A stretch of 64,000 nucleotides of DNA from Mycobacteriales bacterium (GTDB lineage Bacteria > Actinomycetota > Actinomycetes > Mycobacteriales > JACQDL01): positions 307 to 64,306 of the forward strand of contig DATILL010000020.1 of assembly GCA_035476575.1 (NCBI GenBank), read 5' to 3'. This document shows positions 3,280 through 41,480 of the stretch, one piece after another. Position 1 is the first letter of the stretch. Every line of letters begins with the position of its first letter. The position numbers and the translations under genes are program-made. The notes below the pieces were generated by a model that saw only the letters and a program-made list of their open reading frames with translations, was not told the origin of the DNA and searched no databases.

Positions 3280-4641
3280 ATGTACGAGTACCGCCGCCAT
3301 ATACCGGTCGAACCGGACTGGCGCAGGCTGCCCGGCTGGCGCGACGTGACGACGGCCGAGTGGCGCAGCCCACAGTGGCAGCGCGCGCATTGCGTGAAGA
3401 ACGCGCGGCACCTGCGCGCGGTGTACGGCGACCTGGTCAGCGACGCCTTCTACGCCGACCTGGTGCGCGACCAGGCCGAAAGCGCCACCATGTCGCTGCT
3501 GCTACCGCCGCAGATGATCAACACGATGGTGCCGCACGCCCGGCCGGACACCGAGAGCCTGTACGCGGACCCGGTACGGCGGTACATGCTGCCGGTGTTC
3601 TCCGACCGGCATCCAGAGTGGCCGAGCCACCCGGTGGCCAGCCGCGACTCGCTGCACGAGTCGGAGATGTGGGTCGTCGAAGGGCTGACCCACCGGTACC
3701 CGACCAAGGTGCTGGCCGAGGTGGTGTCGACCTGCCCGCAGTACTGCGGCCACTGCACCCGCATGGATCTGGTCGGGCCGTCGACGACGCAGGTGGTCAA
3801 GCAGCGGTTCGCGCTGCGCCCGGTCGACCGGCTCAGCCAGATCGTCGCCTACCTCACGGCAACGCCGTCGGTGCGCGACGTCGTCGTCTCCGGCGGGGAC
3901 GTGGCGAACCTGCCGTGGCCGCGGCTCGAGGCGTTCCTCCTGCAGCTCCTCGACATCGACCACATCCGCGACATCCGGCTCGCCACCAAGGCGCTGATCG
4001 GCCTGCCGCAGCATTGGCTCACCGACGAGGTACAGGCCGGGCTCACCAGGGTGGCGACCACCGCGGTCCGGCGCGGGGTGCAGGTGGCCATCCACACCCA
4101 CGCCAACGCCGCGCAGCAGGTGACGCCGCTGGTCGCCGAGGCCTGCCGGAGCATGTTGGCAACCGGCATCCGGGACGTGCGCAACCAAGGGGTGCTGCTG
4201 CGCGGGGTGAACGACTCCCCGCGCCAGCTGCTCGACCTGTGCTTCGCGCTGCTCGACAGCGCTGGGGTGATGCCGTACTACTTCTACCTCTGCGACATCG
4301 TGCCGAACTGCGAGCACTGGCGGCTGTCGCTCGCCGAGGCGCAGGACCTGCAGGACAAGATCATGGGCTACCTGCCCGGCTTCGCGACGCCGCGGCTGGT
4401 CTGCGACGTGCCGTACGCCGGCAAGCGCTGGGTGCATCAGGTCACCCGCTACGACCGCGAGCTTGGCATCTCGTACTGGACCAAACACTTCCTGACCCTG
4501 GTGGACCGCGGCGACCCGGCCGCGCTGGACCTTCAGTTCGAGTACCACGACCCGGTCTACACCCTTCCCGACGCCGGCCAGGGCTGGTGGCTTGCCCAGC
4601 AGGCAGCGTCTCTTGCCAAGGACGGCACGACATGTGGCTGA
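3280..4641 (+). CDS. KamA-family radical-SAM amino acid 2,3-aminomutase (lysine/arginine 2,3-aminomutase-like)
   Basis: CPQYCGHCTRMD (CxxxCxxC radical-SAM cluster). SGGDV, LLRGVNDS and YYFYLCD blocks are typical of KamA. ATG 3280 is preferred over ATG 3181 because 3181 lies inside the tyrosinase relic. Confidence 0.9.
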   Translation: MYEYRRHIPVEPDWRRLPGWRDVTTAEWRSPQWQRAHCVKNARHLRAVYGDLVSDAFYADLVRDQAESATMSLLLPPQMINTMVPHARPDTESLYADPVRRYMLPVFSDRHPEWPSHPVASRDSLHESEMWVVEGLTHRYPTKVLAEVVSTCPQYCGHCTRMDLVGPSTTQVVKQRFALRPVDRLSQIVAYLTATPSVRDVVVSGGDVANLPWPRLEAFLLQLLDIDHIRDIRLATKALIGLPQHWLTDEVQAGLTRVATTAVRRGVQVAIHTHANAAQQVTPLVAEACRSMLATGIRDVRNQGVLLRGVNDSPRQLLDLCFALLDSAGVMPYYFYLCDIVPNCEHWRLSLAEAQDLQDKIMGYLPGFATPRLVCDVPYAGKRWVHQVTRYDRELGISYWTKHFLTLVDRGDPAALDLQFEYHDPVYTLPDAGQGWWLAQQAASLAKDGTTCG

Positions 4642-5948
4642 ACAACCCCGCCGCGCGGGCGGCGTTCCGGACCGCGCACGCCCAGCTCGAGCTGCTGGAG
4701 GCAGTCGGCTTCGCGCCCGAGACGGTACGGCAGATCCAGCGGGAGAAGCTGGCGCTGCTGTGGAACCGGGCCGCCCGGGTGCCGTACTACCGCGGCCTGC
4801 CCGGCCTCGCCGACCGCGACCTGGACCGGCTGCCGGTCACCGAGAAGGACGCGCTGAAAGCCCGGCCGGCGGACTTCGAGATCCCCGACCTGCCCGACGT
4901 CATCAAGTACTACCACAGCTCGGGGTCGTCCGGCCGGTCCACACCGACGCCCCGGCTGGCCGAGGACATCATCCACAACGTCATCGGCGTGGCGGGGCTC
5001 TGGCGGCGGGCGCTCGGGCGCACGCCGACCCGGGTGGCGTCGCTGCTGCCGTCGGACGTGGTCCCGGTCGGGGACTTTGTGGCGAGTGTGTGCGAGTACC
5101 TCGGCCACACCCTGCTGCGCTGCTACCCCTACAGCCAGGGCATCTGCGACTTCGACCGGCTCGACGCGGTGTTCAGCTCCTTCCGGCCAGAGCGGGTGTT
5201 CGCCGCGCCAGGCGTGCTCATGCAGTGGACCCGGGTGCTGAAGACCCGTGGCCGGCTGGCCGAGCTGCGCGCGTCGGTACGCACGATCATGCTGCTCGGC
5301 GAGGTGTGCCTGCCGGCGCAGCGGCGCAAGCTCGCGCGGGACTGGGGCGCCGACGTGCTCGACGGCTCCTACGGCAGCACCGAGACCGGCACCATCGCGG
5401 CAGCCTGCGAACGCGGCGGTATGCACCTGCTGCTGCCGGGGCACCTGGTGGAGCTGCGGACGCCGGACGGGATCGGGCCGGCGGTGCCGGGCGGGAGCGG
5501 TGAGCTGGTTGACACGACGCTGAACAACTACGCCCGGCCGCTGCTGCGGTTCGGCACCGGCGACCTCGTCGATGTGCCGGCCGAGCCGTGTCCCTGCGGG
5601 CTGCCGCTGCCGACCCTTCGGATACACGGCCGGCGCACCGACGGCATCGCGCTGCACGGGCAGGCGCTGGACGAGCACCTGGTCGGCTCGCTGGTCTACG
5701 ACGACCCGCGGCTCACCGGCTACCTCATCCAGATGCTCGGCGACGGCAGCGGCGGCCGGCTGGTGCTGGAGAAGGACGTCGACGTGGCCGCCGCGGACGA
5801 CGAGCTGGTGGCCGCGGTGAGCCGCCGGTTCGCCGCGACCGGGATCCAGTGGGACCAGGTGGTCGTGGTCAGCCAGCTCCCGGCCACCAGCAAGTCCGGC
5901 GGCAGCCAGAAGAGCTGGAAGCGGACGAACGTGGTGACACTGTCATGA
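4632..5948 (+). CDS. PaaK/coenzyme F390 synthetase-like adenylate-forming ligase
   Basis: In-frame 3' part of ORF 3234-5948 starting at ATG 4632, a 10-nt overlap with the upstream gene. HSSGSSGRSTP (P-loop-like SSGTTG variant) and YGSTETG motifs. Confidence 0.8.
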   Translation: MWLNNPAARAAFRTAHAQLELLEAVGFAPETVRQIQREKLALLWNRAARVPYYRGLPGLADRDLDRLPVTEKDALKARPADFEIPDLPDVIKYYHSSGSSGRSTPTPRLAEDIIHNVIGVAGLWRRALGRTPTRVASLLPSDVVPVGDFVASVCEYLGHTLLRCYPYSQGICDFDRLDAVFSSFRPERVFAAPGVLMQWTRVLKTRGRLAELRASVRTIMLLGEVCLPAQRRKLARDWGADVLDGSYGSTETGTIAAACERGGMHLLLPGHLVELRTPDGIGPAVPGGSGELVDTTLNNYARPLLRFGTGDLVDVPAEPCPCGLPLPTLRIHGRRTDGIALHGQALDEHLVGSLVYDDPRLTGYLIQMLGDGSGGRLVLEKDVDVAAADDELVAAVSRRFAATGIQWDQVVVVSQLPATSKSGGSQKSWKRTNVVTLS

Positions 5949-7663
5949 CCGTGCTGGGCGATGGGGGCGCCCGCCAGGGGGACGCGGACCTGTGGTGCAG
6001 CTACGCCGCGGTACGCACCCTGGCCTGGCTCGGGGACAACCCTGCCGATGCTGACGGGGTGGCCGGGTACCTGCGGTCGCGGCAGAACGCCGACGGCGGG
6101 TTCGCCTGGCAGCGCGGGCTGCCCTCGGACGCGTGGGCCACGTACTACTGCTCGCAGGCGCTGCGCGACCTGGGCGAGCCGGTGCCTCATCTTGACAAGC
6201 TGGGCGAGTGGCTGGACCAGCTGCGTACCGACGACGGCGGGTTTGCCATGACGCCCGGCCAGTCCGCGGACATCTGGGCGACGTACTACGCGTGCCGCAC
6301 CTACGCCGAGGCGCTGGGCGCGCCGGTGCCCCGGGTCGAGGCGCTGGCCGGGTGGCTCGCCGCGACCCAACACGAGTCCGGCGGCCTGGGCTGGCAGCCG
6401 GGGGACGACCGGCCGGACGTGCGGGCGGGGTACTACGGCGCGCTGGCCTGGCGAGCCGCCGTTAGCGGGGCCGGCACACGCGGCAACGCGGGAGCCGCCG
6501 GACCGCCGTGGCGTACCGCGGAGCTGGTCCGGTGGCTGCGCCATCAGCAGTGCCCGGACGGCGGGTTCGGGTTCGGTCCTGGGGCGGCCTCGTGCGCGTG
6601 GGCGACGTTCCGGGCGGTCCGGGCGCTGGCCGCGCTCGGGGCCGGGCCGGCCGACGTCGCCGCGGTGCGGCGGTGGCTGTCCGAGCGGTGGCTGCCCACG
6701 GGCGGGTACGAGCGATGGGTCGGCTACGGGCGGGCCGACGTATGGGCCTGCTTCTCCGCGGTCGGCGCGCTGGACACGCTCGGTCACCGGCTGACCGGTG
6801 CACGGCGAGCTGGGGTCGCCCGGTTCGTCCGTAGCTGCCAGCTTCCCGGCTCCGGCTTCACCTACCGCGACCCGGCAGCGGCGGGGGACAGCCTCGCCAC
6901 GGCGGCGGCGCTGATCACCGGTACCGGTCCGGACCGGGCAGCGCTCGCCGGCTGGCTGCACGCGGCGCACCTGCCCTACGAGGGCGGCATCATGTACATG
7001 CCCGGCCGCGGCGCCGAGGTCCGCTGCACGCTGTGGGCGGTCGAGGCGCTGGCCACTGTTGGCGAGCGGCTGGACGGTGCGCGGCTGGCCGGGTGGTTGC
7101 GGGACCTGCAAAACCCTGACGGCGGCTACGGGTACTGGCTCGGCCGCGGCTCGGACCTGGTGTCCACCGCCTCGGCGGTGGAGGCCACGCAGGCCGCCGG
7201 GCTGACCCCGGCCGAGGTGCTGGACGTCGCGGGCGCGCTGCGGTTCGTGGCCGGCTGCGCGGGAGACGGCGCGTACCGGCCGGTGCCGGGAGCGGTGCCG
7301 ACGCTGTCCGCGACCGCCCAGGCGGCCCGGGTGCTGCAGCTTCTCGGCGAGCCCGAGGCGGCGCTCCGGGTCGGGCGGAGCCTGGCAGCCTGGGCCAGCT
7401 CGCTCGGCGGGCACGCCAGCGCACCGCGCGGGCTGCCGGACCTGATGTCCACCTACCAGGCGGTGCTGACCCAGCAGGTGCTCGGCCTGCCGGTGGACCG
7501 GGCCGGGCTCGGCCGGCTGCTGGCGAAGGTGCGAACCGGCGCCGGCTACTCCTGGAGCCCGATCAGCCAGCAGCCGGCCGGCCCGCTGGCCGACTGCCTC
7601 GGTGTGCAGCTCGCCGCTGTCGCCGCCGGTGCCCCGGTCACGGTGCGCCGGCTGAACCTCTGA
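5945..7663 (+). CDS. Prenyltransferase/squalene-cyclase-type alpha/alpha-toroid repeat protein
   Basis: ATGA overlap start at 5945. At least 8 repeats of the QxxDGGF/W type (RQNADGGFAWQ, LRTDDGGFAM, HQQCPDGGFGF, LQNPDGGYGYW and others). Confidence 0.7.
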   Translation: MTVLGDGGARQGDADLWCSYAAVRTLAWLGDNPADADGVAGYLRSRQNADGGFAWQRGLPSDAWATYYCSQALRDLGEPVPHLDKLGEWLDQLRTDDGGFAMTPGQSADIWATYYACRTYAEALGAPVPRVEALAGWLAATQHESGGLGWQPGDDRPDVRAGYYGALAWRAAVSGAGTRGNAGAAGPPWRTAELVRWLRHQQCPDGGFGFGPGAASCAWATFRAVRALAALGAGPADVAAVRRWLSERWLPTGGYERWVGYGRADVWACFSAVGALDTLGHRLTGARRAGVARFVRSCQLPGSGFTYRDPAAAGDSLATAAALITGTGPDRAALAGWLHAAHLPYEGGIMYMPGRGAEVRCTLWAVEALATVGERLDGARLAGWLRDLQNPDGGYGYWLGRGSDLVSTASAVEATQAAGLTPAEVLDVAGALRFVAGCAGDGAYRPVPGAVPTLSATAQAARVLQLLGEPEAALRVGRSLAAWASSLGGHASAPRGLPDLMSTYQAVLTQQVLGLPVDRAGLGRLLAKVRTGAGYSWSPISQQPAGPLADCLGVQLAAVAAGAPVTVRRLNL

Positions 7664-7672
7664 GGACCGCAC

Positions 7673-8044
7673 ATGCCCACGACCACGATCGAGCTGCCGA
7701 TGGCGGACCCGCGTCTCGAGCGCCGGGTCGCCAAGGAGCTGAGCTTGTGGTGGCGTCGCCGAGGGGTCGACGTCAACCACGTGATCACCCGCTTCGCCAC
7801 CCTGCCCGCCGACCGCGTCTACAGCGGCCCGTTCCCGCTCGCCGGATCCTTCGCCCTGGTGAGCTGCCTGGTCTCGCGGGACCGCGACCACAGCTTCAAG
7901 CGGGACTACGCGCACGCGGTGCGAGCCGTGCTCGGGCCGCGGATCCCGCCGGACCGGGTGTTCGTCTCGTTTCACCCGACCGATCCGGCCGACCACTTCA
8001 CGCCCAACACCTGGGAGCAGGAGGACGTTCATGACCCGCGCTGA
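7673..8044 (+). CDS. Tautomerase-superfamily protein (Tautomerase_3/cis-CaaD-like, Pro1)
   Basis: Starts Met-Pro (MPTTTIELP...), about 120 aa. The beta-alpha-beta pattern resembles long tautomerase family members. Motif-level call only. Confidence 0.5.
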   Translation: MPTTTIELPMADPRLERRVAKELSLWWRRRGVDVNHVITRFATLPADRVYSGPFPLAGSFALVSCLVSRDRDHSFKRDYAHAVRAVLGPRIPPDRVFVSFHPTDPADHFTPNTWEQEDVHDPR

Positions 8045-8366
8045 GCTGACCGCGGCGGTGCGCGACACGGTAGCTGGCCTGATAGCACAGCCACTGGCCG
8101 CCGCCGACGACGAGCGGGCGCTCGCCGAGATCTCGTCCGAGCGGTACGACAGCCTCGCCGTGCTGGACTGCGTCGGCCTGGTCGAGCAGCGCTTCGGCGT
8201 CGAGGTCGACCTCGTCGAGGACGACCTGCGCACCTCGTTTCGCAGCGTCGCCTCGATCGCCGCGCTGGTCGAGCGCAAGCAGCACGACGCCGCCGTTCTC
8301 GGAGCCGCGTTCCCCGCGGCGCCCGGACCTTCGGTCGGCGCGCCGCCCGCGGCGGCCGGCCAGTGA
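8031..8366 (+). CDS. Free-standing acyl/peptidyl carrier protein
   Basis: 111 aa. The YDSLAVLD motif provides the phosphopantetheine-attachment Ser in a DSL context, and helix II follows (VGLVEQRFG). RBS GGAGCAGGAGGA. Confidence 0.7.
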   Translation: MTRAELTAAVRDTVAGLIAQPLAAADDERALAEISSERYDSLAVLDCVGLVEQRFGVEVDLVEDDLRTSFRSVASIAALVERKQHDAAVLGAAFPAAPGPSVGAPPAAAGQ

Positions 8367-14285: not shown

Positions 14286-14288
14286 GCC

Positions 14289-15581
14289 ATGCCGAACCCT
14301 GCTGTGCTGCTGCTGGGTGGCCTCTCGGTCGCCTGGAACCAGCGATATCTGGACGCCGCACATGCCCGCGGCCTCGCCGTCCTGGTCGCCGACGCGCCCG
14401 GCCCGCACGTCGCGCCGCTGCTCGCCGGCTGGCCGGCCAGCCGCCCGCTGGCCGAGGTCGCCGAGCTGCCGCCTGGCGACGTGGCCGGCATCGTGGACCG
14501 GGCCGCCACCTGGTCGGCACGGTACGACATCCGCGGCGTGTGCTGCCTGCGCGAGGAGTACGTCGAGGCGACCGCCTGGGTGGCCGACCTGCTGGCGCTG
14601 CCCGCACCGGGCCTGCGGGCCGCCCGGGTGTGCCGCAACAAGTACCTGCAGCGCCGCTACCTCGCGGCCTGGAGCCCGGCCGCTGAGCTGGTCGGGCCGG
14701 ACCGGCGAGCCGACGCGGTCCAGGAGTGGACCCGGTTCCCGCTGGTGGTCAAGCCGGTCGGCCGGCTGGCCAGCTCCGGGGTGCGGCTGGTCAGCGGGTC
14801 GTGGGAGCTGCGGGACTGCTTTGCCGACTACGGAGCGGACGAGGTGCTGCTGTTCGAGGAGCGGCTCCTCGGGCAGGAGTACTCGGTCGAGTCACTCAGC
14901 CAGTCCGGGCAGCTCCGCTACACCGAGGTCACCGAGAAGCGGACCACCGAGCACGGGTCGGCGTACTTCGTCGAGATGGGCCACACCACGCCCGCGCCGG
15001 GCCTGGTCGCGACCGACCGCACCGCGCTGCTGGCCGCCCACGAGGCGGTGCTGGCCCGGCTGGGCTTCGGCACCGGGATGGCCCACGCGGAGTACCGGCT
15101 GACCGGCGACGGAGCGGTACGGCTGATCGAGATCGCGGTCCGCCCACCGGGCGACAGCATCCTGGCGCTGCACTGGCTCGCGACCGGTACGCCCCTGGAG
15201 GACGCCCTGGTCGGGCTCGCCGTGGGGGAGCCGGTGGCCATCCCGACCGCCCGCCGGTACGCGCGCCAGGTGTACCTGCCGCATGACGCGGGGGTGCTGG
15301 ACGGGTTGACCGTCGATCCGGCGCTCGGGGTGCGGCCGCTGTGGTTCAGCCCAGCCGAGGTGCGCGCGCAGGTAGCCGCGGCCGGAGCGGCCGGGGACCC
15401 GCCGGCGCTGCGCTGCGTCATGGCGCTCAAGCCGGCCGGCACGCCGCTGGCACCGATCCGCGAGTCAGGGGACCGGGCCGCGATGTTCGTGCTGGATGCC
15501 GCCACACCCGCGGAGCTGGATGAGCTCGAGGCTCGGTGCCGGGCGGCGATCACGGTACGGGTCACGCCGGACAAGAACTGA
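14289..15581 (+). CDS. ATP-grasp carboxylate-amine ligase (second copy)
   Basis: Colinear paralogue of 11696-12988 (RVCRNKYLQRR...FPLVVKPVGRLASSGV...HAEYR...LIEIAVRPPGDSI). Confidence 0.8.
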   Translation: MPNPAVLLLGGLSVAWNQRYLDAAHARGLAVLVADAPGPHVAPLLAGWPASRPLAEVAELPPGDVAGIVDRAATWSARYDIRGVCCLREEYVEATAWVADLLALPAPGLRAARVCRNKYLQRRYLAAWSPAAELVGPDRRADAVQEWTRFPLVVKPVGRLASSGVRLVSGSWELRDCFADYGADEVLLFEERLLGQEYSVESLSQSGQLRYTEVTEKRTTEHGSAYFVEMGHTTPAPGLVATDRTALLAAHEAVLARLGFGTGMAHAEYRLTGDGAVRLIEIAVRPPGDSILALHWLATGTPLEDALVGLAVGEPVAIPTARRYARQVYLPHDAGVLDGLTVDPALGVRPLWFSPAEVRAQVAAAGAAGDPPALRCVMALKPAGTPLAPIRESGDRAAMFVLDAATPAELDELEARCRAAITVRVTPDKN

Positions 15582-15620
15582 CTGAGCAACCTGTCTGAAC
15601 AAACTATCGGGGGGATAACG

Positions 15621-16787
15621 GTGATAGCGCTTACCTCGCTGCGAGGGGCAGCGCAGGCCGCATCGGACTGGCCGGCCCAGGCCGACCTCGCCAGCGTGGC
15701 GACCGAGCTGGGCAGGCGGCCGCCGCTGGTCGCCGCCGCCGACTGCCGATCACTACGGGACCGGCTCACCGAGGTCGCGGCCGGCCGGGGCTTCCTGGTC
15801 CAGGCCGGCGACTGTGCCGAGCTGTTCGACGAGGTCTCGGCCCACACGACCACACGCAAGGCCGCCCAGCTCGCCGAGCTGGCCGACCTGGTCGAGGCGC
15901 GCAGCGGGCTGCCGGCGGTGAGCGTCGGCCGGATCGCCGGCCAGTTCGCCAAGCCGCGGTCGCACCAGACCGAGACCGGGCCGGGTGACCTCGAGCTGCC
16001 GGTCTACCGCGGCGACGCGGTGAACGGCGCGGCCGCCACGCCCGCCGCCCGCCGGCCCGACCCGCGCCGGATGCTGACCGCCTACGACAAGTCCGCGGTC
16101 GTGCTCGGCCACCTGGCCGGCAGCTACCCGACGGTGTACGCGAGCCACGAGGCGCTGCTGTTGCCGTACGAGACCGCGCTGCTCCGCACCGACGCCGCCA
16201 CCGGTTCCCGGTACGGCTCCTCGGCGCACCTGCTGTGGGTGGGGGAGCGGACCCGCCAGCCGGACGGCCCCTGGGTGGAGCTGCTGGCCGAGGTAGCCAA
16301 CCCGGTCGCGGTGAAGCTCGGCCCGACCGCGACCCCGGCCGACGTGACCGCGCTGCTGCGGCGCCTGAACCCGGCCGGTGAGCCGGGCCGGCTGGTGTTC
16401 ATCGCCCGGATCGGCGCGGACCGGGTGGCTGACGTGCTACCGGACCTGGTCGCGGCGGCCGGTACCGCCCAGCCGGTATGGATCTGTGACCCGATGCACG
16501 GCAACACCGTCCGCCACCCGGACGGCCGCAAGACGCGGGCGCTCGCGGACATCCTGGCCGATGTCAGCGGGTTCGTCCGCGTGCTGCGGGGCGCTGGCGG
16601 GCACCCCGGCGGTATCCACCTGGAGACCTCCCCGGACGACGTCACCGAGTGCGTCGGCAGCCGGGCCGACATCGCCGGCGCGTCGCTGCCGCGGTACTGG
16701 ACCGGCTGCGACCCCCGGCTCAACCCCGGCCAGGCCCGGGCCGTGGTGGCCGCCTTCGTCGAGGCGCTGGACTCATGCTCGGGCTAG
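15621..16787 (+). CDS. Class II 3-deoxy-7-phosphoheptulonate (DAHP) synthase
   Basis: RIAGQFAKPRS and CDPMHGNT class II DAHPS motifs. At 388 aa it is short, like pathway-dedicated copies. Confidence 0.85.
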   Translation: MIALTSLRGAAQAASDWPAQADLASVATELGRRPPLVAAADCRSLRDRLTEVAAGRGFLVQAGDCAELFDEVSAHTTTRKAAQLAELADLVEARSGLPAVSVGRIAGQFAKPRSHQTETGPGDLELPVYRGDAVNGAAATPAARRPDPRRMLTAYDKSAVVLGHLAGSYPTVYASHEALLLPYETALLRTDAATGSRYGSSAHLLWVGERTRQPDGPWVELLAEVANPVAVKLGPTATPADVTALLRRLNPAGEPGRLVFIARIGADRVADVLPDLVAAAGTAQPVWICDPMHGNTVRHPDGRKTRALADILADVSGFVRVLRGAGGHPGGIHLETSPDDVTECVGSRADIAGASLPRYWTGCDPRLNPGQARAVVAAFVEALDSCSG

Positions 16788-18334
16788 ACACGCTGACCCC
16801 GCGCGAGGTGGCCCGGCTCGCCCGCCAGCCCGGGGCCCGGATCGAGCTGCCGGAGCCGGCCGCGGACCGGATGGCCGCCTCGGTGCTGCTGCGCGACGAG
16901 CTGGTCGCCACCGGCCAGCCGATCTACGGCGTGACGACCGGCTTCGGGGCCAACAACATCAACCACATCTCGGCCGCCCGGGCCACCGCCTTGCAGGCCA
17001 ACCTGGTCGAGTACCACCTGGTCGGCAGCGGCCCGCTCGCGGCGCCCGAGGTGGTCCGGGCGACCATGCTGATCCGGGCCAACTGCCTCGCCCGCGGCCG
17101 GTCCGGGGTACGGCCGGAGGTCGTGCGGCTGCTGCTCGACTGCCTCGCCCACGACATCCTGCCGCCGATCCCCGAGCGCGGCTCGGTCGGCGCGAGCGGT
17201 GACCTGGTACCGCTGTGCTACCTGGCGAACCTCCTGGTCGGCCGGGGCGAGGCGGTGGTCGCGGGACGGTGGCAGCCGGCCGACCAGGCGCTGCTGACCC
17301 ACGGGCTGCGGCCGCTCGCCCTGCAGCCGAAGGAGGCGCTCGGCCTGATCAACGGCACGTCGTTCATGGCCGGCTTCGCGGTCCTCGCGGCGGCCGGCGC
17401 GGCCGAGCTGGCCCACGCCGCCGAGGTGTGCACCGCGCTCACGGTCGAGGCGCTGCGCGGCAACCGCGGCCCGTACGAGCCGGACACCCACCGGCACAAG
17501 CCGCACCCGGGCCAGCAGCGCAGCGCCGCGGCGGTACGCGGGCTGCTGGCCGGCTCGACCCTGGCCTGCGACCACGACGAGGTGCTGCGGGCCAACCCCG
17601 CCCTCGCCGGCCGGGCGCACCAGCGGCTGGACCACCCGATCCAGGACCGGTACTCGCTGCGCTGCGCCCCGCACGTGATCGGCGTGCTGCGCGACACCCT
17701 GGACTGGGTCGACCGCTGGCTGCACGTGGAGATCAACTCGACCAACGACAACCCGCTGTTCGACCCCGACACCGGCCAGGCGCACAGCGGCGGCAACTTC
17801 TACGGCGGCCATGTCGGCCTCGCGATGGACACCCTCAAGGTGGCCGTGGCGAGCGTGGGCGACCTGCTCGACCGGCAGCTCGCCCTGGTGGTCGACGACA
17901 AGTACAGCAACGGCCTGCCCGCCGGCCTGGTGACCACCGGCGGCGGGCTGCACCACGGCTTCAAGGGCGTGCAGCTCGCCTGCTCCGCGGTCGTTGCCGA
18001 GGCGCTCAAGCTGGGCATGCCGGCCACCGCGTTCTCCCGCTCTACCGAGGCACACAACCAGGACAAGGTGAGCATGGGCACGATCGCCGCCCGCGACGCC
18101 CGCACCGCCGTGGAGCTGGTGGGCCAGGCGACCGCGCTGCACCTGACCGCGCTGTGCCAGGCCGTCGACCTGCGCGGGGTGGACCGGCTCGGCGCCGGCA
18201 CCCGCGCCGCGTACAACCTGGTACGCAAGCACGTCGGCTTCGTCGACCGGGACCGGCGGCTCGACACCGAGGTGGCCGCGCTCGCCGAGGCGATCGCCAC
18301 CGGGGCGCTACGAGAGGCGGTCGGCGATGCGTGA
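16775..18334 (+). CDS. MIO-dependent aromatic amino acid ammonia-lyase/aminomutase (HAL/PAL/TAL/TAM family)
   Basis: GSVGASGDLVPL (Ala-Ser-Gly MIO triad), YGVTTGFG, NDNPL. ATG 16775 overlaps the DAHPS gene by 13 nt. Confidence 0.9.
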   Translation: MLGLDTLTPREVARLARQPGARIELPEPAADRMAASVLLRDELVATGQPIYGVTTGFGANNINHISAARATALQANLVEYHLVGSGPLAAPEVVRATMLIRANCLARGRSGVRPEVVRLLLDCLAHDILPPIPERGSVGASGDLVPLCYLANLLVGRGEAVVAGRWQPADQALLTHGLRPLALQPKEALGLINGTSFMAGFAVLAAAGAAELAHAAEVCTALTVEALRGNRGPYEPDTHRHKPHPGQQRSAAAVRGLLAGSTLACDHDEVLRANPALAGRAHQRLDHPIQDRYSLRCAPHVIGVLRDTLDWVDRWLHVEINSTNDNPLFDPDTGQAHSGGNFYGGHVGLAMDTLKVAVASVGDLLDRQLALVVDDKYSNGLPAGLVTTGGGLHHGFKGVQLACSAVVAEALKLGMPATAFSRSTEAHNQDKVSMGTIAARDARTAVELVGQATALHLTALCQAVDLRGVDRLGAGTRAAYNLVRKHVGFVDRDRRLDTEVAALAEAIATGALREAVGDA

Positions 18335-19673
18335 CCCGCGGGCTGCGGTCCGGGAGTACTCCACCGGCCGGCACCGCGCCGAGGCCGCACCCCGGCCGCC
18401 CCGGCTCCTGATGCAGCCGCTGCGCGAGCGGCTGCGGCTGATCGCGGCGGGCGAGCTGGCCGTGGCGGAGTGGCTCGCCGCCGCCGACGAGTGGAGCGCC
18501 ACGGCCGACGAGCGGTACCGCGCCTGCGTCGAGCTGCGCCCGGCCGGGCAGCCGGTACGGCTCGCCGTCAAGGACACCATCGACGTGGCCGGCTTCCCCA
18601 CCCGGCTGGGGCTCCGCCGGCACCGGCACTACCCGCGCCGGTCCGCTGTGGCGCTGCGCGGGCTGCCGGTCAACGCCAAGGTGGTGACGACCGAGCTGAA
18701 CATCGGCATCGGCTCCGGTTGCGTCAACCCGTACTTCCCGCACATCGACCCGGCCGGCTCCAGCACCGGCTCCGGGGTGGCCGTGGCGGCCGGGATCTGC
18801 GACGTGTCGCTCGGGACGGACGTGCTCGGCTCGGTGCGCTGGCCGGCCGGGCGGTGCGGCGTCGTCGGCCTGCGCACCACGCACAGCGAGCGGCGGCTGG
18901 CCGGGGTCTTCCCGCTGTCGCCGTCGATGGACGCGCCCGGCTGGGTGGCCCGGGCCGCCGACGACCTGGCCGTGCTGGCCGACCGGATCGGCCTCGACGG
19001 CGACGGCGCGCCCGGACAGTACCGGATCGGGCTGGTGCGGGAGGTGCTCGACGGCGGGTGCGAGCCGGAGATCCTGACCGCGCTGGAGCTGTGCCACGCC
19101 GCGCTGGCCGACGCTGGCCACCGGGTCGAGGGGGTACGGCTGGGCGAGCTGTGGCGATGTCGAGGCATGGCGTGGGACCTGTGCGCCCGCGAGGCCTGGG
19201 ACGGGTACCAGGTCTGGCGGCAGTGGATCTCCGACGACCTGCTCGACTCGACCCGGCGTGCACTCGAGGCGGGCGCGCGGATCGGCGACGGGCGTTATGC
19301 CGAGCTGCGCGCCGAGCAGCAGCGGCAGCGGGCCGGTGTGGCCGAGCTGTTCGCCCGCCAGGAGGTCGACGCCTGGCTGCTGCCGCTCGACCCGGACGTG
19401 CCGTGCCCGCCCGACGCGGCCGAGCGTGTCACCGCCACCAGCATCCCGACCCCGGCGGACGACCCGGCTGGCTATGACCGCGCGGTCGGCTACACGCCGG
19501 TGGCGAGCTTCGCCGGCCTGCCGGCGATCACCTTCCCAGTCGGCCGTGGCACCACGACGGGCGCGCCGCTCGCGATGCAGCTCGTCGGCCCGCCCCGATC
19601 CGACCGTAGGCTGGTCGCGCTGGCCGCCGACGTTGGCCGGCGCCTCGGCGACCTCGGCTTTGTCCCGCGCTGA
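18327..19673 (+). CDS. Amidase-signature enzyme (second copy)
   Basis: VKDTIDVAGFPT, AGSSTGSGVAVAAG, GTDVLGSVRWPA. Alternative start at ATG 18411, where the N-terminus aligns with that of 10425-11699. Confidence 0.8.
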   Translation: MRDPRAAVREYSTGRHRAEAAPRPPRLLMQPLRERLRLIAAGELAVAEWLAAADEWSATADERYRACVELRPAGQPVRLAVKDTIDVAGFPTRLGLRRHRHYPRRSAVALRGLPVNAKVVTTELNIGIGSGCVNPYFPHIDPAGSSTGSGVAVAAGICDVSLGTDVLGSVRWPAGRCGVVGLRTTHSERRLAGVFPLSPSMDAPGWVARAADDLAVLADRIGLDGDGAPGQYRIGLVREVLDGGCEPEILTALELCHAALADAGHRVEGVRLGELWRCRGMAWDLCAREAWDGYQVWRQWISDDLLDSTRRALEAGARIGDGRYAELRAEQQRQRAGVAELFARQEVDAWLLPLDPDVPCPPDAAERVTATSIPTPADDPAGYDRAVGYTPVASFAGLPAITFPVGRGTTTGAPLAMQLVGPPRSDRRLVALAADVGRRLGDLGFVPR

Positions 19674-19692
19674 AACACCGAAGGAGAAGCAC

Positions 19693-20418
19693 GTGCCACG
19701 TACCGTCCTCGTCACCGGTGGCGCGACCGGCATCGGCTTCGCGGTCGCCACGACGTTCGCCCAGGCCGGCGACCGGGTCATCATCACCGGTCGCCGCGAA
19801 CAGGTGCTCACCGAGGCCGCCGGCCGGCTAGGCGCGACCCCGCTCGCCTTCGACGCCACCGACCCTGAGGCGGTCACCAAGGCGGTCGCCGCCCTGCCCG
19901 ACCGGGTGGACGTCGTGGTCAACAACGCCGGCGGCAACACCGACTTCGCCCAGCCGGACGCCGCCGACGACGACCTGTCCGCGCTCGCGGCGAGCTGGCG
20001 GGCCAACCTGGAGGCCAACCTGGTCTCCGCCGTGCTCGTCACCGCCGCGCTCACCCCGCGGCTGCCCGACGGCGGCCGGGTGATCACGATCGGCTCCATC
20101 GCGGCCCGTACCGGCGCCGGTTCCTACGGCGCCGCGAAGGCGGCGGTCGAGGCCTGGACCACCAGCGTCGCCGCCGAGCTCGGCCCACGCGGCATCACGG
20201 CCAACGTCGTCTCGCCCGGGCTGACCCTCGGCACCGAGTTCTTCGGCGACCGGCTCACCGTGCAGCGCCAGCAGCGGCTGATCGACGCCACGCTGGTCAA
20301 GCGGGCGGGCACCCCGGACGACGTCGCGGCCACCGTGTTCTTCCTCGCCTCGCCAGCGGCCCGGCATCTCACCGGACAGGTCTTCCACGTCAACGGTGGC
20401 GCCTATCTCGGGCGGTGA
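19693..20418 (+). CDS. Short-chain dehydrogenase/reductase
   Basis: GTG start 7 nt after AAGGAG. TGGATGIG cofactor motif and SYGAAKAA (YxxxK). Confidence 0.85.
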   Translation: MPRTVLVTGGATGIGFAVATTFAQAGDRVIITGRREQVLTEAAGRLGATPLAFDATDPEAVTKAVAALPDRVDVVVNNAGGNTDFAQPDAADDDLSALAASWRANLEANLVSAVLVTAALTPRLPDGGRVITIGSIAARTGAGSYGAAKAAVEAWTTSVAAELGPRGITANVVSPGLTLGTEFFGDRLTVQRQQRLIDATLVKRAGTPDDVAATVFFLASPAARHLTGQVFHVNGGAYLGR

Positions 20419-23984: not shown

Positions 23985-24026
23985 GGGCGGTTGGTGCCGG
24001 CAGCGGCCGTTACCAACCGCCCTTCT
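23985..24026 (+). terminator. Hairpin terminator candidate after the M14 gene
   Basis: GGGCGGTTGGT (23985-23995) pairs with ACCAACCGCCC (24012-24022) and is followed by TTCT. Lies 17 nt after the stop codon. Confidence 0.45.
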
Positions 24027-24030
24027 ATCA

Positions 24031-24125
24031 GATGCTGAAGGCGACATCGTCAAACCCCGGCGCGCCGGTGGCAGGCCAGTACATGAGTGCTTGAAACTAC
24101 AGGTCGACACCCCACCGCCATGGCC
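24031..24125 (+). pseudogene. Relic of tyrosinase-like gene codons ~24-55 (complementary to the relic at 3055-3193)
   Basis: gatgctgaaggcgacatcgtcaaaccccggcgcgccgg...ccagtaca aligns to 29986-30040 of the intact gene. Contains stops and indels. Confidence 0.5.
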
Positions 24126-24202
24126 CCGGGCCGCATGCCCTCCGACCGGCTGGTGAACGCCCAGAACTCTGAGCAGGCAAGCACTGCCAAGCGGTCGCTA
24201 TG

Positions 24203-25096: not shown

Positions 25097-25194
25097 CACG
25101 CCGCGGCCCATGGGAAGATATGTCGGCGAGATCCTACTACCTAGCCCGTTCAACCAGCCGCCGAGCAGTCCCGAGGCCGCCGCCGGACCTGCTG

Positions 25195-25400: not shown

Positions 25401-25532
25401 TGTAGGGCGACCGCGGGGGCCGTGTCTTGCTCTCGCTGCCGTTCGGCGACGACATGTGCCGGTCACCACGTCAGCGATGGTCGAAGCGGCCGGTATCTAG
25501 ACCCGAGATTGTCCCCTCTACCTCGATGATTT

Positions 25533-41431: not shown

Positions 41432-41480
41432 ACGCAACCACCGACCATCCACCCGCTACCAGGAGAAACAGGAGCACCCC

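What the first reader, a model, noticed from the sequence alone, without database searches (positions are those of the whole stretch)
3280..20418. 17-kb, 15-gene NRPS/PKS-free ligase cluster built around two aminomutase-type enzymes; product not assignable
All 15 ORFs are co-directional. Ten junctions overlap by 4-14 nt (ATGA/GTGA at 5945, 8363, 9265, 10425, 11696 and others) and the remaining gaps are 39 nt or less, so this is one operon.

Gene content:
- KamA-family radical-SAM 2,3-aminomutase (CPQYCGHC; the GVND and LCD blocks that I recall as binding the distal amine in lysine 2,3-aminomutase are retained).
- MIO enzyme (ASG triad) overlapping a dedicated class II DAHP synthase.
- Three adenylate-forming ligases (two PaaK/F390-like, one truncated ANL).
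- A free carrier protein.
- Two paralogous ATP-grasp ligases and two paralogous amidase-signature enzymes.
- A Pro1 tautomerase-like protein, a QxxDGGF toroid protein, an SDR and an MFS exporter.

I see no NRPS C/A/T megasynthase, PKS KS or obvious RiPP precursor. The set predicts a small amide-linked metabolite combining a beta-amino acid of the beta-Lys/beta-Arg type with a Phe/Tyr-derived unit (beta-aryl amino acid or cinnamate), assembled by stand-alone ligases. I cannot match this combination to any characterised pathway from memory.
Basis: partly seen in the sequence, partly recalled or inferred. Interest (0 to 1): 0.85.

Follow-up and report, generated by a model that had tools for sequence, protein, structure and literature searches.

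The report
Orphan ligase operon: tyrosine unit plus beta-lysine
This is a real 15-gene operon from a soil actinomycete that probably builds a small, unknown amide-linked compound from a tyrosine-derived acid and beta-lysine, using free-standing ligases and two unusual, unstudied core proteins; relatives occur rarely in three bacterial phyla and none has been characterised.

Summary
There are 15 co-directional genes at 3280-20418. Ten junctions overlap by 4-14 nt and the other gaps are 3-39 nt. Every family call was reproduced, and no PKS or NRPS lies anywhere in the 64 kb.

The interpretation needs re-centring, because the cluster is not built around two aminomutases. Comparison with about 20 related loci shows a conserved core: PaaK/NatL2-like ligase, double alpha/alpha toroid, Pro-1 tautomerase-fold protein, carrier protein, further ANL ligase(s) and an SDR. 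An amidase follows in most members.

KamA and the MIO enzyme are swappable supply modules. KamA's slot holds a diaminobutyrate transaminase in sister clusters, and in one of them that enzyme is fused to the g7-type ligase. An SbnA/SbnB-like pair flanks another cluster. Three unrelated Tyr-type MIO lineages and two DAHP synthase classes were recruited independently. The window's MIO enzyme looks like a tyrosine ammonia-lyase, not a mutase.

Best reading: a dapdiamide-like, NRPS-independent pathway that joins p-coumarate (or beta-Tyr) to beta-lysine. Tailoring happens on the carrier, ATP-grasp ligases extend the product, and an MFS pump exports it.

I found no characterised homologous cluster. 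The product and the roles of the toroid, the tautomerase-like protein and the amidases remain unknown.

The parts
3280..4641 (+). g1, KamA-family radical SAM/PLP enzyme. Probably lysine 2,3-aminomutase supplying beta-lysine (3,6-diaminohexanoate).
   Evidence: CPQYCGHC motif. Aligns to C. subterminale LAM 2A5H (138 bits) with D293 (LCD), D330 (CDVP) and the PLP Lys kept. TIGR00238 scores 168 bits and TIGR03820 167 bits, both below cutoff. The 72%-identical P0085 sits next to kdd, kamD and kamE. The same slot holds a DAB transaminase in L021 and L022.
4632..5948 (+). g2, PaaK-like aryl-acid adenylating ligase (core).
   Evidence: NCBIfam BagE/FevW 105 bits; PaaK models weak. Nearest solved structures are PaaK 9s3l, AjiA1 6wuq and NatL2 6siw at 78-86 bits. 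It always directly precedes the toroid gene.
5945..7663 (+). g3, double alpha/alpha toroid of 24 helices (core). Catalytic role unknown.
   Evidence: PF00432 122 bits. AF2 pLDDT 94.6, pTM 0.93. In Foldseek, half the protein matches FTase/GGTase beta (TMq about 0.4) and the whole matches SHC, OSC or drimenyl-PP synthase only loosely (TMq 0.46-0.53). No conserved DxDD in 38 homologues. About 289 scored homologues across three phyla.
7673..8044 (+). g4, undescribed tautomerase-superfamily protein with an N-terminal Pro (core).
   Evidence: No Pfam or NCBIfam hit. All 40 close relatives are annotated 'hypothetical'. Invariant M1-P2-T3, H36 and R71. AF2 pLDDT 90.8 with tandem beta-alpha-beta units. 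Foldseek top hit is cis-CaaD 3mf8 (E 1e-8, TM 0.80, rmsd 1.7 A), followed by Cg10062, MIF and MSAD. Only 82 representatives among 1.84 billion proteins. Natural fusions to the carrier exist.
8031..8366 (+). g5, free-standing carrier protein (core).
   Evidence: PP-binding 16.6 bits, below the 20.8 cutoff. The (Y/F/W)-D-S-(L/S) serine is conserved in 8 loci. An Sfp-type PPTase lies beside the L023 cluster. Fused to the g4 domain in P0285 and in the other five long members whose sequences I read, out of about 14 of that length.
8363..9268 (+). g6, short ANL enzyme lacking the N-terminal third. Candidate p-coumarate activator.
   Evidence: AMP-binding positions 170-337 only. TIGR02372 (photoactive-yellow-protein-type 4-coumarate-CoA ligase) scores 79.5 bits, far below its 334.7 cutoff. 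The only solved relative is 4gs5.
9265..10428 (+). g7, PaaK-like ANL enzyme linked to the diamino acid.
   Evidence: AMP-binding 43 bits. In Actinophytocola (L016) the g7 homologue (44% identical) forms the C-terminal half of an 853-aa protein. The N-terminal half is the DAB transaminase, 76% identical to the L021 enzyme.
10425..11699 (+). g8, amidase-signature enzyme that follows the ANL genes in most family members.
   Evidence: PF01425 129.5 bits. Nearest solved structures are GatA 3kfu and malonamidase E2, aligned over the full length. The KD...GSSTGS...GTDSGGS triad motifs are present in the sequence.
11696..12988 (+). g9, ATP-grasp L-amino-acid-ligase type.
   Evidence: ATP-grasp_4 48 bits; LAL_C2 weak. 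Nearest solved structures are L-amino acid ligases BL00235 (3vot) and RizA (4wd3).
12981..14285 (+). g10, MFS transporter. Probable exporter.
   Evidence: MFS_3 100 bits, MFS_1 96 bits. TIGR00900 H+ antiporter 157 bits; EntS 59 bits.
14289..15581 (+). g11, second ATP-grasp ligase, paralogue of g9.
   Evidence: 47% identical to g9 over 430 aa. ATP-grasp_4 50 bits.
15621..16787 (+). g12, short class II DAHP synthase supplying shikimate-pathway precursor.
   Evidence: PF01474 412 bits. TIGR01358 403 bits, below the 614.7 cutoff. A class I DAHP synthase occupies the Symbiobacteriaceae cluster instead.
16775..18334 (+). g13, MIO enzyme. Probably tyrosine ammonia-lyase producing p-coumarate.
   Evidence: PF00221 552 bits. 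BagA/FevW TAL 654 bits versus Tyr 2,3-aminomutase 397 (cutoff 501). Sequence shows GASGDL, YGVTTGFGA and Y-H-L. It scores 312 bits against SgcC4, where the Amycolatopsis sister enzyme scores 731.
18327..19673 (+). g14, second amidase-signature enzyme, paralogue of g8.
   Evidence: PF01425 144 bits. 40% identical to g8. Found in the KamA clade and, at 60% identity, as the only amidase in L016.
19693..20418 (+). g15, short-chain dehydrogenase/reductase (part of the deep core).
   Evidence: adh_short_C2 153 bits. An SDR accompanies the cassette in L005, L006, L012, L014-L016, L018-L020 and L024-L026.

Best explanation
This is a self-contained, NRPS- and PKS-independent biosynthetic operon. It most likely makes a small exported pseudopeptide in which a tyrosine-derived aryl-C3 acid is amide-linked to beta-lysine.

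Steps supported by sequence or comparative evidence:
- g12 (DAHP synthase) raises aromatic amino-acid supply.
- g13 (MIO enzyme with a His-Leu selectivity motif) converts L-Tyr to p-coumarate.
- g1 (KamA) converts L-Lys to beta-lysine.
- g7 (ANL) handles the diamino acid. Its orthologue is fused to the diamino-acid-making transaminase in a sister cluster.
- g4 (cis-CaaD-like Pro-1 enzyme) works together with carrier g5. The two are fused in about 14 family members.

Steps that are inferred:
- g6 (weakly similar to 4-coumarate-CoA ligase) activates the aryl acid, and one of the ANLs loads an intermediate onto holo-g5.
- g4 hydrates or tautomerises the carrier-bound acryloyl system, and g15 (SDR) carries out the redox step.
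- g3 (the toroid) and g2 (NatL2/BagE-like ligase) perform a further, still unknown coupling or cyclisation.
- g9 and g11 (L-amino-acid-ligase-type ATP-grasps) each add an amino acid.
- g8 and g14 (amidases) release the product, deprotect it or supply amide nitrogen.
- g10 exports the product.

The overall logic resembles dapdiamide assembly: dedicated diamino-acid supply, an ANL-type amide ligase, tailoring on a carrier, then an ATP-grasp ligase.
For: Operon structure.

Biosynthetic, not housekeeping:
- 14 loci in 185,579 species genomes.
- Flanking genes are not conserved with the block.
- The block carries its own MFS transporter and a DAHP synthase.

Core versus accessory genes: tblastn map of 14 loci and annotated contexts.

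Diamino-acid module swapping:
- KamA in the window clade.
- TIGR00709 DAB transaminase (464-471 bits, above the 401.6 cutoff) in the same slot in L021 and L022.
- The same transaminase fused to the g7-type ANL in L016.
- An SbnA/SbnB-like pair (285 and 199 bits, best hits by far) plus an Asn synthase beside the Amycolatopsis cluster.

Tyrosine unit:
- Three MIO lineages, only 30-40% identical, all with His at the selectivity position. One is an SgcC4 orthologue.
- A class II DAHP synthase in the actinomycete clusters but a class I enzyme in the Symbiobacteriaceae MAG.

LAM assignment.

g4 fold and fusions.

LAL-type ATP-grasps.

Dapdiamide precedent: an NRPS-independent route with the ABS DdaG and the ATP-grasp DdaF, plus DdaD-tethered tailoring, as described in the text and reference titles of PMC12568646.
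Against: - No product is known, and no enzyme here was assayed.
- None of the substrate-level NCBIfam equivalog cutoffs is met for g1, g6, g12 or g13.
- Which ANL activates which acid is guesswork. g6's coumarate-ligase similarity is weak (79.5 bits against a 334.7 cutoff).
- g13's best solved relative is an aminomutase (SgcC4), so beta-tyrosine cannot be excluded.
- Two close relatives (L006, L012) lack the MIO enzyme yet keep everything else. The aryl unit may therefore come from elsewhere or differ between members.
- The roles of the toroid, the Pro-1 protein and the amidases are unexplained, and the minimal sister cassettes (L025, L026) lack amidase, ATP-grasp and MIO altogether.
- The SbnA/SbnB-like pair is below the curated cutoffs and sits in a divergent neighbouring operon.
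- Expression of the operon is untested.
Confidence: 0.6

Rival explanations
1. Same pathway type, but g13 acts as a tyrosine 2,3-aminomutase. The aryl unit would then be beta-tyrosine and the product a beta-Tyr/beta-Lys pseudopeptide, as the first reader's 'two aminomutases' framing implies.
For: g13's best solved relatives are SgcC4 tyrosine aminomutase entries at 312 bits, ahead of R. sphaeroides TAL at 266. The Amycolatopsis sister cluster carries a clear SgcC4 orthologue at 731 bits, so beta-Tyr may be the family's common intermediate. MIO lyases and mutases share one mechanism and often show both activities (established knowledge).
Against: The BagA/FevW TAL model scores 654 bits against 397 for the Tyr-aminomutase equivalog, which is below its 501 cutoff. 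g13 reads TTGFGA...YHL where SgcC4 and its orthologue read TTGYGE...SHS. From my recollection of the SgcC4 literature, Glu71 in that motif matters for mutase activity, but I did not test this. A weakly coumarate-ligase-like ANL (g6) and an acrylate-hydratase-like g4 fit a coumaroyl intermediate.
Confidence: 0.2
2. The operon is a starter- or extender-unit cassette that prepares a protected beta-amino-acyl carrier thioester for a PKS or NRPS encoded elsewhere. This would follow the vicenistatin, hitachimycin and incednine macrolactam pathways, which use an ANL, a second ANL, an ACP and a deprotecting amidohydrolase (VinN/VinM/VinL/VinJ).
For: The parts list fits: an aminomutase, two or three ANLs, a free carrier and amidases directly after the ANLs. 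Diamino-acyl thioesters would need N-protection to avoid lactam formation (chemical inference).
Against: No PKS or NRPS occurs in the 64-kb window, nor among the genes called in the flanks (up to 10 kb) of the annotated related loci. No VinK-type acyltransferase is present. The operon has its own exporter and two L-amino-acid-ligase-type ATP-grasps, which points to a complete pathway.
Confidence: 0.08
3. The operon is catabolic or detoxifying, degrading hydroxycinnamates, aromatic amides or beta-lysine.
For: An ANL, a hydratase-like protein and an SDR recall CoA-dependent hydroxycinnamate beta-oxidation. There are two amidases. The cassette occurs in plant-associated Agrobacterium vitis. g1's closest relatives include catabolic lysine aminomutases.
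Against: A dedicated DAHP synthase, recruited twice from different classes, makes sense only for biosynthesis. So do the diamino-acid synthesis modules. Five ATP-consuming ligases and a carrier protein argue the same way. There is no thiolase, ring-cleavage dioxygenase or kamDE/kdd in the operon. The distribution is rare and patchy.
Confidence: 0.05
4. A pheganomycin-like hybrid in which the ATP-grasp ligases attach the non-proteinogenic unit to a ribosomally made peptide.
For: Two LAL-type ATP-grasp ligases are present. Precedent: PGM1 in pheganomycin biosynthesis (my knowledge).
Against: No intergenic gap inside the operon exceeds 39 nt. The two small upstream ORFs (1789-2193 and 2212-2724) and the other flanking genes are not conserved in any related locus.
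Confidence: 0.04

Closest known systems
Dapdiamide pathway of Pantoea agglomerans (DdaA-I)
   Same: NRPS-independent assembly of a pseudopeptide. It has dedicated diamino-acid supply (an SbnA/SbnB-type pair, from my knowledge). An ANL-type amide bond synthetase (DdaG) acylates the diamino acid with an alpha,beta-unsaturated acid. An intermediate is tethered to a carrier for tailoring (DdaD/DdaC), and an ATP-grasp ligase (DdaF) adds an amino acid (PMC12568646). The Amycolatopsis sister cluster even has an SbnA/B-like pair and an Asn synthase.
   Different: No sequence-level orthology was shown. Here the acyl unit is aromatic and Tyr-derived, not fumarate. The diamino acid is beta-lysine. The carrier is free-standing and not part of an NRPS module. 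There is no Fe/2OG epoxidase. The toroid, the Pro-1 tautomerase-fold protein and the amidase-signature enzymes have no dapdiamide counterpart.
Bagremycin/ferroverdin enzymes BagA/FevW (TAL) and BagE/FevW (PaaK-like synthetase), and the benzoxazole ligases NatL2/AjiA1
   Same: g13's best family model is BagA/FevW TAL (654 bits) and g2's is BagE/FevW (105 bits). g2's nearest solved structures include NatL2 and AjiA1. All are Tyr- or aryl-acid-handling enzymes of actinomycete secondary metabolism that couple aryl acids without CoA.
   Different: Both scores fall far below the curated cutoffs (1000 and 800). No 3,4-AHBA or 3-hydroxyanthranilate genes, no UbiD/UbiX decarboxylase and no NatAM-type amidohydrolase are present.
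cis-3-chloroacrylic acid dehalogenase (cis-CaaD), Cg10062 and MIF in the tautomerase superfamily
   Same: g4 has the same tandem beta-alpha-beta fold (TM 0.80, rmsd 1.7 A). It also has an invariant N-terminal Pro plus an invariant His and Arg. These enzymes hydrate or tautomerise 3-substituted acrylates and (hydroxy)phenylpyruvate, which are chemically close to p-coumarate.
   Different: Only 10-19% identical, with no Pfam hit. Counterparts of cis-CaaD Tyr103 and Glu114 are not evident (a comparison from memory). g4 is embedded in a biosynthetic cassette and fused to a carrier protein in some members. I know of no characterised superfamily member with that arrangement.
Protein prenyltransferase beta subunits and class II (beta-gamma) terpene cyclases
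   Same: g3 has the PF00432 repeats and a confidently predicted double alpha/alpha toroid. It superposes on FTase/GGTase beta and, loosely, on SHC, OSC and drimenyl-PP synthase.
   Different: No DxDD motif. No alpha-subunit gene and no isoprenoid genes are in the cluster. Full-length TM reaches only about 0.5 with rmsd 7-12 A. The context is amino-acid and aryl-acid ligation, not terpenoid chemistry.
Macrolactam beta-amino-acid starter cassettes (vicenistatin VinN/M/L/K/J; incednine IdnL; hitachimycin HitA)
   Same: An aminomutase (KamA-family or MIO) combined with ANL enzymes, a free ACP and a deprotecting amidohydrolase (my knowledge of these pathways).
   Different: No PKS and no VinK-type acyltransferase. 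The amidases belong to the amidase-signature family. ATP-grasp ligases and an exporter are present.

Membership tests
Lysine 2,3-aminomutase (KamA/AblA) | Radical SAM CxxxCxxC cluster motif | tested here: met
   CPQYCGHC in g1, aligned to the CSMYCRHC motif of 2A5H.
Lysine 2,3-aminomutase (KamA/AblA) | PLP lysine and the two Asp residues (D293, D330 in C. subterminale LAM) that bind the substrate epsilon-ammonium group | tested here: met
   In the alignment to 2A5H, YLCD matches YQCD293 and CDVPYAGK matches VD330APGGGGK337, with a one-residue indel before the Lys. The residue roles are from my knowledge of the LAM structure.
Lysine 2,3-aminomutase (KamA/AblA) | Score above the curated equivalog cutoff (TIGR03820, 525.4 bits) or the KamA subfamily cutoff (TIGR00238, 199.2 bits) | tested here: not met
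   166.7 and 168 bits. The actinomycete clade is divergent from the model seeds.
Lysine 2,3-aminomutase (KamA/AblA) | Close homologues embedded in lysine-to-beta-lysine metabolism | tested here: met
   P0085 (72% identical) lies beside 3,5-diaminohexanoate dehydrogenase (KDD_N) and beta-lysine 5,6-aminomutase KamD/KamE in two genomes.
Lysine 2,3-aminomutase (KamA/AblA) | Conversion of L-lysine to beta-lysine | not testable with these tools
   Needs an anaerobic enzyme assay.
MIO-dependent aromatic ammonia-lyase/aminomutase (PF00221) | Family score, Ala-Ser-Gly MIO triad and catalytic Tyr loop | tested here: met
   552 bits against a 27.3 cutoff. GASGDL and YGVTTGFG are present.
Tyrosine 2,3-aminomutase (TIGR03832) | Score above the equivalog cutoff of 501 bits | tested here: not met
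   397.4 bits. Against SgcC4 it scores 312 bits, versus 731 for a true orthologue from L020.
BagA/FevW-type tyrosine ammonia-lyase (NF041222) | Score above the curated cutoff of 1000 bits | tested here: not met
   654.3 bits. It is the best of all MIO models but below the cutoff, so g13 is 'closest to', not 'a member of', this family.
Tyrosine-specific MIO enzyme | His at the substrate-selectivity position (His-Leu in TAL, Phe-Leu in PAL) | tested here: met
   g13 reads ...LVEY-H-L-VGSG. The rule itself is from my knowledge of the R. sphaeroides TAL work.
Class II DAHP synthase | Family score and equivalog score | tested here: inconclusive
   PF01474 scores 411.6 bits (met) but TIGR01358 scores 403.2, below the 614.7 cutoff. 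At 388 aa it is a short form.
Tautomerase superfamily (g4) | N-terminal catalytic proline on a beta-alpha-beta fold | tested here: met
   Invariant M-P-T start in 28 aligned homologues plus 7 locus-derived homologues spanning three phyla. Model pLDDT 90.8. 253 PDB matches with E <= 0.001, the listed top hits being cis-CaaD, Cg10062, MIF and MSAD apart from one designed protein. A weak Tautomerase_3 hit falls on relative P0321.
Tautomerase superfamily (g4) | Match to an existing Pfam or NCBIfam tautomerase model | tested here: not met
   No hit for g4 at E <= 0.01 in either library.
Acyl/peptidyl carrier protein (g5) | PP-binding model score and conserved phosphopantetheine-attachment serine | tested here: inconclusive
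   16.6 bits, below the 20.8 cutoff. However, the D-S-(L/S) serine is invariant in 8 loci and a PPTase neighbours L023. Holo-form not testable here.
Class II terpene cyclase (g3) | DxDD general-acid motif | tested here: not met
   Absent from g3 and from 36 of 38 homologues. The two occurrences lie at unrelated positions.
Protein prenyltransferase beta subunit (g3) | Single toroid paired with an alpha subunit, plus Zn ligands (Asp/Cys/His) | tested here: inconclusive
   No alpha-subunit gene lies in any locus. g3 is a double toroid of 572 aa. Zn-ligand equivalence was not tested.
L-amino acid ligase type ATP-grasp (g9, g11) | ATP-grasp domain plus the LAL C-terminal domain | tested here: inconclusive
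   ATP-grasp_4 scores 48-50 bits (met). LAL_C2 scores 19-21 bits, below its 29.4 cutoff. The nearest solved structures are LALs 3vot and 4wd3.
Dapdiamide-type NRPS-independent pathway | Diamino-acid supply + ANL amide ligase + ATP-grasp ligase, with no NRPS condensation domain | tested here: met
   The component families are present and no NRPS is in the window. This is a similarity of logic only. Orthology to the Dda proteins was not tested.
Macrolactam beta-amino-acid starter cassette | Adjacent modular PKS and a VinK-type acyltransferase | tested here: not met
   None in the 64-kb window or among the genes called in the related loci.

The most novel reading that the evidence does not exclude
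The conserved module of ANL, double toroid, Pro-1 tautomerase-fold protein, carrier and SDR may be a previously unrecognised biosynthetic platform. In it, a tautomerase-superfamily enzyme and a non-terpenoid alpha/alpha toroid would act on carrier-tethered aryl-acyl intermediates. The platform would be decorated clade by clade with interchangeable diamino acids (beta-Lys, 2,4-DAB, 2,3-Dap). The result would be an unknown class of hydroxycinnamoyl- or beta-tyrosyl-diamino-acid pseudopeptides, possibly Trojan-horse antimetabolites, found in Actinomycetota, Bacillota and Alphaproteobacteria.
Probability: 0.35. Interest if true: 0.8.

Novelty: new variant of a known kind. Interest (0 to 1): 0.62.

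Why it matters
Pathways that use stand-alone amide ligases are hard for genome-mining tools to recognise, yet they have produced useful antimetabolites and protease inhibitors (dapdiamides, bacilysin, E-64).

This operon defines a rare cassette that crosses phylum boundaries. Its two signature proteins have no known biochemical role: a carrier-associated tautomerase-fold enzyme and a double toroid lacking the cyclase motif. The clade-by-clade swapping of diamino-acid supply genes gives a concrete, testable prediction of the product scaffold.

Cultured, fully sequenced hosts carry the same operon (Kitasatospora sp. NBC_00070, Planosporangium sp. 12N6, Winogradskya consettensis NBRC 14913). Isolating the product and reconstituting the enzymes is therefore feasible now. 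That work could add new reaction types to the tautomerase and toroid superfamilies and new amide-forming biocatalysts.

Tried and rejected
1. KamA as a housekeeping gene lying next to the cluster by chance. This was suggested by thousands of homologues at 70-79% identity. Rejected: the KamA-ANL-toroid order recurs in Kitasatospora, Planosporangium, Micromonospora and Winogradskya.

2. Negamycin (beta-lysine, Kitasatospora). Its clusters share only the aminomutase.

3. A hidden PKS or NRPS. None exists in the window.

4. g3 as a terpene cyclase. No DxDD motif and no isoprenoid genes.

5. A regulatory RNA or riboswitch upstream. Rfam found nothing at gathering thresholds in the whole window. Promoter and terminator scans of the flanks gave nothing useful.

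6. Flanking genes as part of the cluster (M14 carboxypeptidase, tyrosinase-domain protein, two small upstream ORFs). They are not conserved in any related locus.

7. Ten full-text literature searches with different gene-set keywords returned no paper describing this gene combination. The first attempt failed on syntax.

8. Sequence search of g4 against solved structures gave only noise. The fold became clear only from the AF2 model.

9. Look-up of P0010 failed because the exact sequence is not on record.

10. L017 (Actinorugispora) has only a g7-like gene and is not a family member.

11. L007 is a decayed copy lacking g1 and g2.

Full report
SOURCE AND OBSERVATION

The window is about 72% G+C. 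g1 is 100% identical to a protein from a 266-kb contig of a 'Mycobacteriales bacterium' metagenome-assembled genome.

A third-position GC frame plot shows uninterrupted + strand coding from about 3300 to 20400. I called 15 genes.

Pfam and NCBIfam reproduce every family assignment. The two ATP-grasp genes are 47% identical and the two amidases 40%.

Upstream lie an MFS gene and two unassignable small ORFs. Downstream lie an M14 carboxypeptidase, a transposase, a tyrosinase-domain protein, a type I-E CRISPR-Cas locus, a formate-dehydrogenase-like operon, a kinase and a SARP-type regulator. No PKS or NRPS is present anywhere in the 64 kb. None of the tested flanking genes is found next to the cluster in other genomes, so the unit is g1-g15.

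IS IT MORE THAN A CHANCE NEIGHBOURHOOD?

Yes. The same genes occur in the same order in:
- Kitasatospora sp. NBC_00070 and five further Kitasatospora genomes.
- Planosporangium sp. 12N6.
- Micromonospora zhanjiangensis and Winogradskya consettensis.

Protein identities are 56-78%. A pattern-based scan of one genome per species (185,579 species) returned only 14 loci. The scan depended on two peptide patterns and is a lower bound. Even so, the block is clearly rare and patchy, not primary metabolism.

CORE VERSUS ACCESSORY GENES

Mapping the 15 proteins onto all loci and reading annotated contexts changes the picture of what the cluster is built around.

The run g2-g8 is conserved in most members: ANL, toroid, roughly 125-aa protein, roughly 100-aa carrier, short ANL, ANL, amidase. 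It is present at 35-57% identity in Streptacidiphilus melanogenes, Actinophytocola xinjiangensis, an uncultured Actinomycetota MAG and a Symbiobacteriaceae (Bacillota) MAG. Amycolatopsis japonica and Agrobacterium vitis carry the same run with small rearrangements.

The toroid protein has about 289 scored relatives across these groups.

The small protein g4 has only 82 cluster representatives among 1.84 billion proteins. About 14 of those are natural fusions of the g4 domain to a g5-type carrier. Three such fusions were inspected, and all sit in the cassette:
- L024: SDR, ANL, toroid, fusion, short ANL, MIO.
- L025 and L026: a minimal version with (ANL), toroid, SDR, fusion, a 360-406-aa protein and a PhyH dioxygenase.

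The deepest core is therefore ANL + toroid + SDR + g4 + carrier. The amidase, ATP-grasp ligases, MFS transporter, DAHP synthase and MIO enzyme are frequent additions. KamA is specific to one clade.

THE TWO 'AMINOMUTASES'

g1. It aligns with the solved lysine 2,3-aminomutase. The CxxxCxxC motif, the PLP lysine and both aspartates that hold the lysine epsilon-ammonium group are kept. A 72%-identical homologue lies beside 3,5-diaminohexanoate dehydrogenase and beta-lysine 5,6-aminomutase genes in two genomes. g1 misses the curated NCBIfam cutoffs. I therefore call it a probable lysine 2,3-aminomutase recruited from the actinomycete catabolic lineage.

g13. It is a genuine MIO enzyme (552 bits, ASG triad) with His-Leu at the selectivity position, which indicates tyrosine. 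Its best model is the BagA/FevW tyrosine ammonia-lyase (654 bits). It fails the tyrosine aminomutase equivalog (397 bits against a 501 cutoff).

The Amycolatopsis sister cluster carries a true SgcC4-type aminomutase (731 bits against 2OHY, motifs TTGYGE...SHS). g13 scores 312 bits and reads TTGFGA...YHL.

I therefore favour lyase activity and p-coumarate, with beta-tyrosine as a live alternative.

COMPARATIVE EVIDENCE FOR THE BUILDING BLOCKS

1. Diamino acid.
   - In L021 and L022 the gene directly upstream of the g2 homologue, KamA's position, passes the curated cutoff for the diaminobutyrate-2-oxoglutarate transaminase family (464-471 bits against 401.6).
   - In Actinophytocola that transaminase (76% identical) is fused in one 853-aa protein to the g7-type ANL (44% identical to g7).
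   - Next to the Amycolatopsis cluster lie an SbnA-like and an SbnB-like gene (285 and 199 bits, the best hits by a wide margin though below cutoff). An asparagine synthase and a carbamoyltransferase accompany them.
   - beta-Lysine, 2,4-diaminobutyrate and 2,3-diaminopropionate are all non-proteinogenic diamino acids. The simplest reading is that the family's products contain a diamino acid, that g1 supplies it here, and that g7 handles it.

2. Aromatic unit.
   - Three MIO lineages, only 30-40% identical to each other and all with His at the selectivity position, were recruited in different clades.
   - A DAHP synthase accompanies many clusters. It is class II in actinomycetes and class I in the Symbiobacteriaceae MAG.
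   - Independent recruitment of analogous enzymes argues that a tyrosine-derived unit is needed.
   - Caveat: two close relatives (L006, L012) lack the MIO gene.

THE UNUSUAL CORE PROTEINS

g4 has no Pfam or NCBIfam match, and all its relatives are annotated as hypothetical. With a 28-sequence alignment AlphaFold gives pLDDT 90.8 and a tandem beta-alpha-beta fold. Foldseek places it in the tautomerase superfamily, nearest to cis-CaaD (E 1e-8, TM 0.80, rmsd 1.7 A), Cg10062, MIF and MSAD. Met-Pro-Thr at the N-terminus, one His and one Arg are invariant.

The characterised neighbours of g4 hydrate or tautomerise 3-substituted acrylates and (hydroxy)phenylpyruvate. That chemistry would fit a coumaroyl intermediate. 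The fusions to the carrier suggest the substrate is carrier-bound.

g3 is predicted with pLDDT 94.6 as 24 helices forming a double alpha/alpha toroid. Half of it superposes on prenyltransferase beta subunits. The whole matches beta-gamma cyclases only loosely. It lacks DxDD, and no isoprenoid genes are nearby. Its function is unknown. Invariant Asp, Glu, Cys, Trp and Arg residues sit in a repeated [S/D]-D-x-W-A-T-Y helix-start motif.

g2's nearest solved relatives are PaaK and the aryl-acid ligases NatL2 and AjiA1. g6 is weakly similar to the photoactive-yellow-protein 4-coumarate ligase family. g9 and g11 are nearest to L-amino-acid ligases. g8 is nearest to GatA and malonamidase E2 and keeps the Ser-cisSer-Lys motifs.

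MECHANISM

Shown or well supported:
- An operon of stand-alone ATP-dependent ligases with a carrier protein.
- Dedicated supply of beta-lysine and of a Tyr-derived acid.
- An association between g7 and the diamino acid.
- An association between g4 and the carrier.

Inferred:
- p-Coumarate (from g13) and beta-lysine (from g1) are activated by ANL enzymes and joined by an amide bond, with one partner held on holo-g5.
- g4 and the SDR modify the acryloyl system on the carrier.
- g2 and g3 perform an unknown coupling or cyclisation.
- g9 and g11 append amino acids.
- The amidases deprotect, release or supply nitrogen.
- g10 exports the product.

The closest known logic is dapdiamide assembly. That is an NRPS-independent route in which the ABS DdaG and the ATP-grasp DdaF form the two amide bonds, and an intermediate is tethered to a carrier for tailoring (PMC12568646). 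E-64 and phevamine show the same stand-alone-ligase principle. This is a similarity of logic, not demonstrated orthology.

KNOWN OR NEW?

Ten full-text searches found no paper describing this gene combination. The negamycin clusters share only the aminomutase. I could not run antiSMASH or MIBiG, and subscription-only literature was not searched, so a characterised member cannot be excluded.

On present evidence this is an orphan cluster. It belongs to a known general kind, the NRPS-independent ligase pathways. Its core combines two uncharacterised protein families and a modular diamino-acid supply, so I rate it a new variant of a known kind.

VERDICT

Its emphasis on 'two aminomutases' is misplaced, because those genes are accessory and one is probably a lyase. 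Orphan clusters are common, but this one has unusual and tractable enzymology and cultured hosts. Interest: 0.62.

Noticed in passing
window 49567-52683 (+), UGA at 50131-50133: A molybdopterin oxidoreductase is split by one in-frame UGA inside the motif QARI-U-HSATVPGL, the signature of selenocysteine formate dehydrogenase alpha subunits. A hairpin follows the UGA (-23.6 kcal/mol, z -1.2, not significant in this GC-rich DNA). 4Fe-4S and NrfD-like subunit genes follow at 52610-54477.
   Followed up: partly
window 36596-47328: A complete-looking type I-E CRISPR-Cas locus: Cas3 36596-39190, Cse1 39226-40824, Cas7-like 41481-42641 and Cas1 44180-45175. It is followed by a CRISPR array of about 29 repeats with a 61-nt period (repeat GTCGTCCCCGCCCGCGCGGGGGTCGCCC) at about 45528-47328.
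   Followed up: partly
L007 5797-6618 (Kitasatospora sp. NPDC049258): A decayed copy of the cluster. g1 and almost all of g2 are missing. Only the last dozen or so residues of g2 (SQKNWKRTNVV) survive, fused to the end of an unrelated alpha/beta-hydrolase-like ORF, while g3-g14 remain intact.
   Followed up: partly
L016 8441-11002 (Actinophytocola xinjiangensis): An 853-aa natural fusion of a diaminobutyrate-transaminase-family enzyme and a g7-type ANL ligase. The same locus also has RimK-like and circularly-permuted ATP-grasp genes and a metallo-beta-lactamase-fold gene inside the cluster.
   Followed up: partly
L025 and L026 (metagenome contigs): A minimal sister cassette with toroid, SDR, tautomerase::carrier fusion, a 360-406-aa unannotated protein and a PhyH-type Fe/2OG dioxygenase. 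It has no amidase, ATP-grasp or MIO enzyme and may make a different product class on the same core.
   Followed up: no
L020 1138-7339 (-) (Amycolatopsis japonica): Divergent from the cassette is an operon with an asparagine synthase, an SbnB-like and an SbnA-like gene, a haem-oxygenase-like (PF14518) protein, a CDGSH zinc-finger protein, an ornithine-carbamoyltransferase-like enzyme and LysE. It may belong to the same pathway (Dap supply and modification) or be a separate cluster.
   Followed up: partly
L022 4376-7155: A 44-aa ORF followed by TfuA and YcaO genes (thioamide-type RiPP signature) lies immediately upstream of the DAB-type cluster in the uncultured Actinomycetota MAG. It is probably an unrelated neighbouring cluster.
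   Followed up: no
window 59456-62500 (+): A large SARP/BTAD-NB-ARC-TPR regulator (1014 aa) lies 39 kb downstream of the operon. No regulator is encoded inside or immediately beside the 15-gene block.
   Followed up: no
window 24001-26700: G+C drops to 0.625 next to a DDE transposase fragment (25865-26668, - strand), suggesting an insertion-sequence remnant between the operon and the CRISPR-Cas region.
   Followed up: no
L019 13717-14235 (Agrobacterium vitis): A GNAT most similar to spermidine/spermine N-acetyltransferase PaiA (74 bits) is inserted between the ANL and the amidase of the cassette. It may provide self-resistance by acetylating an amine of the product.
   Followed up: no
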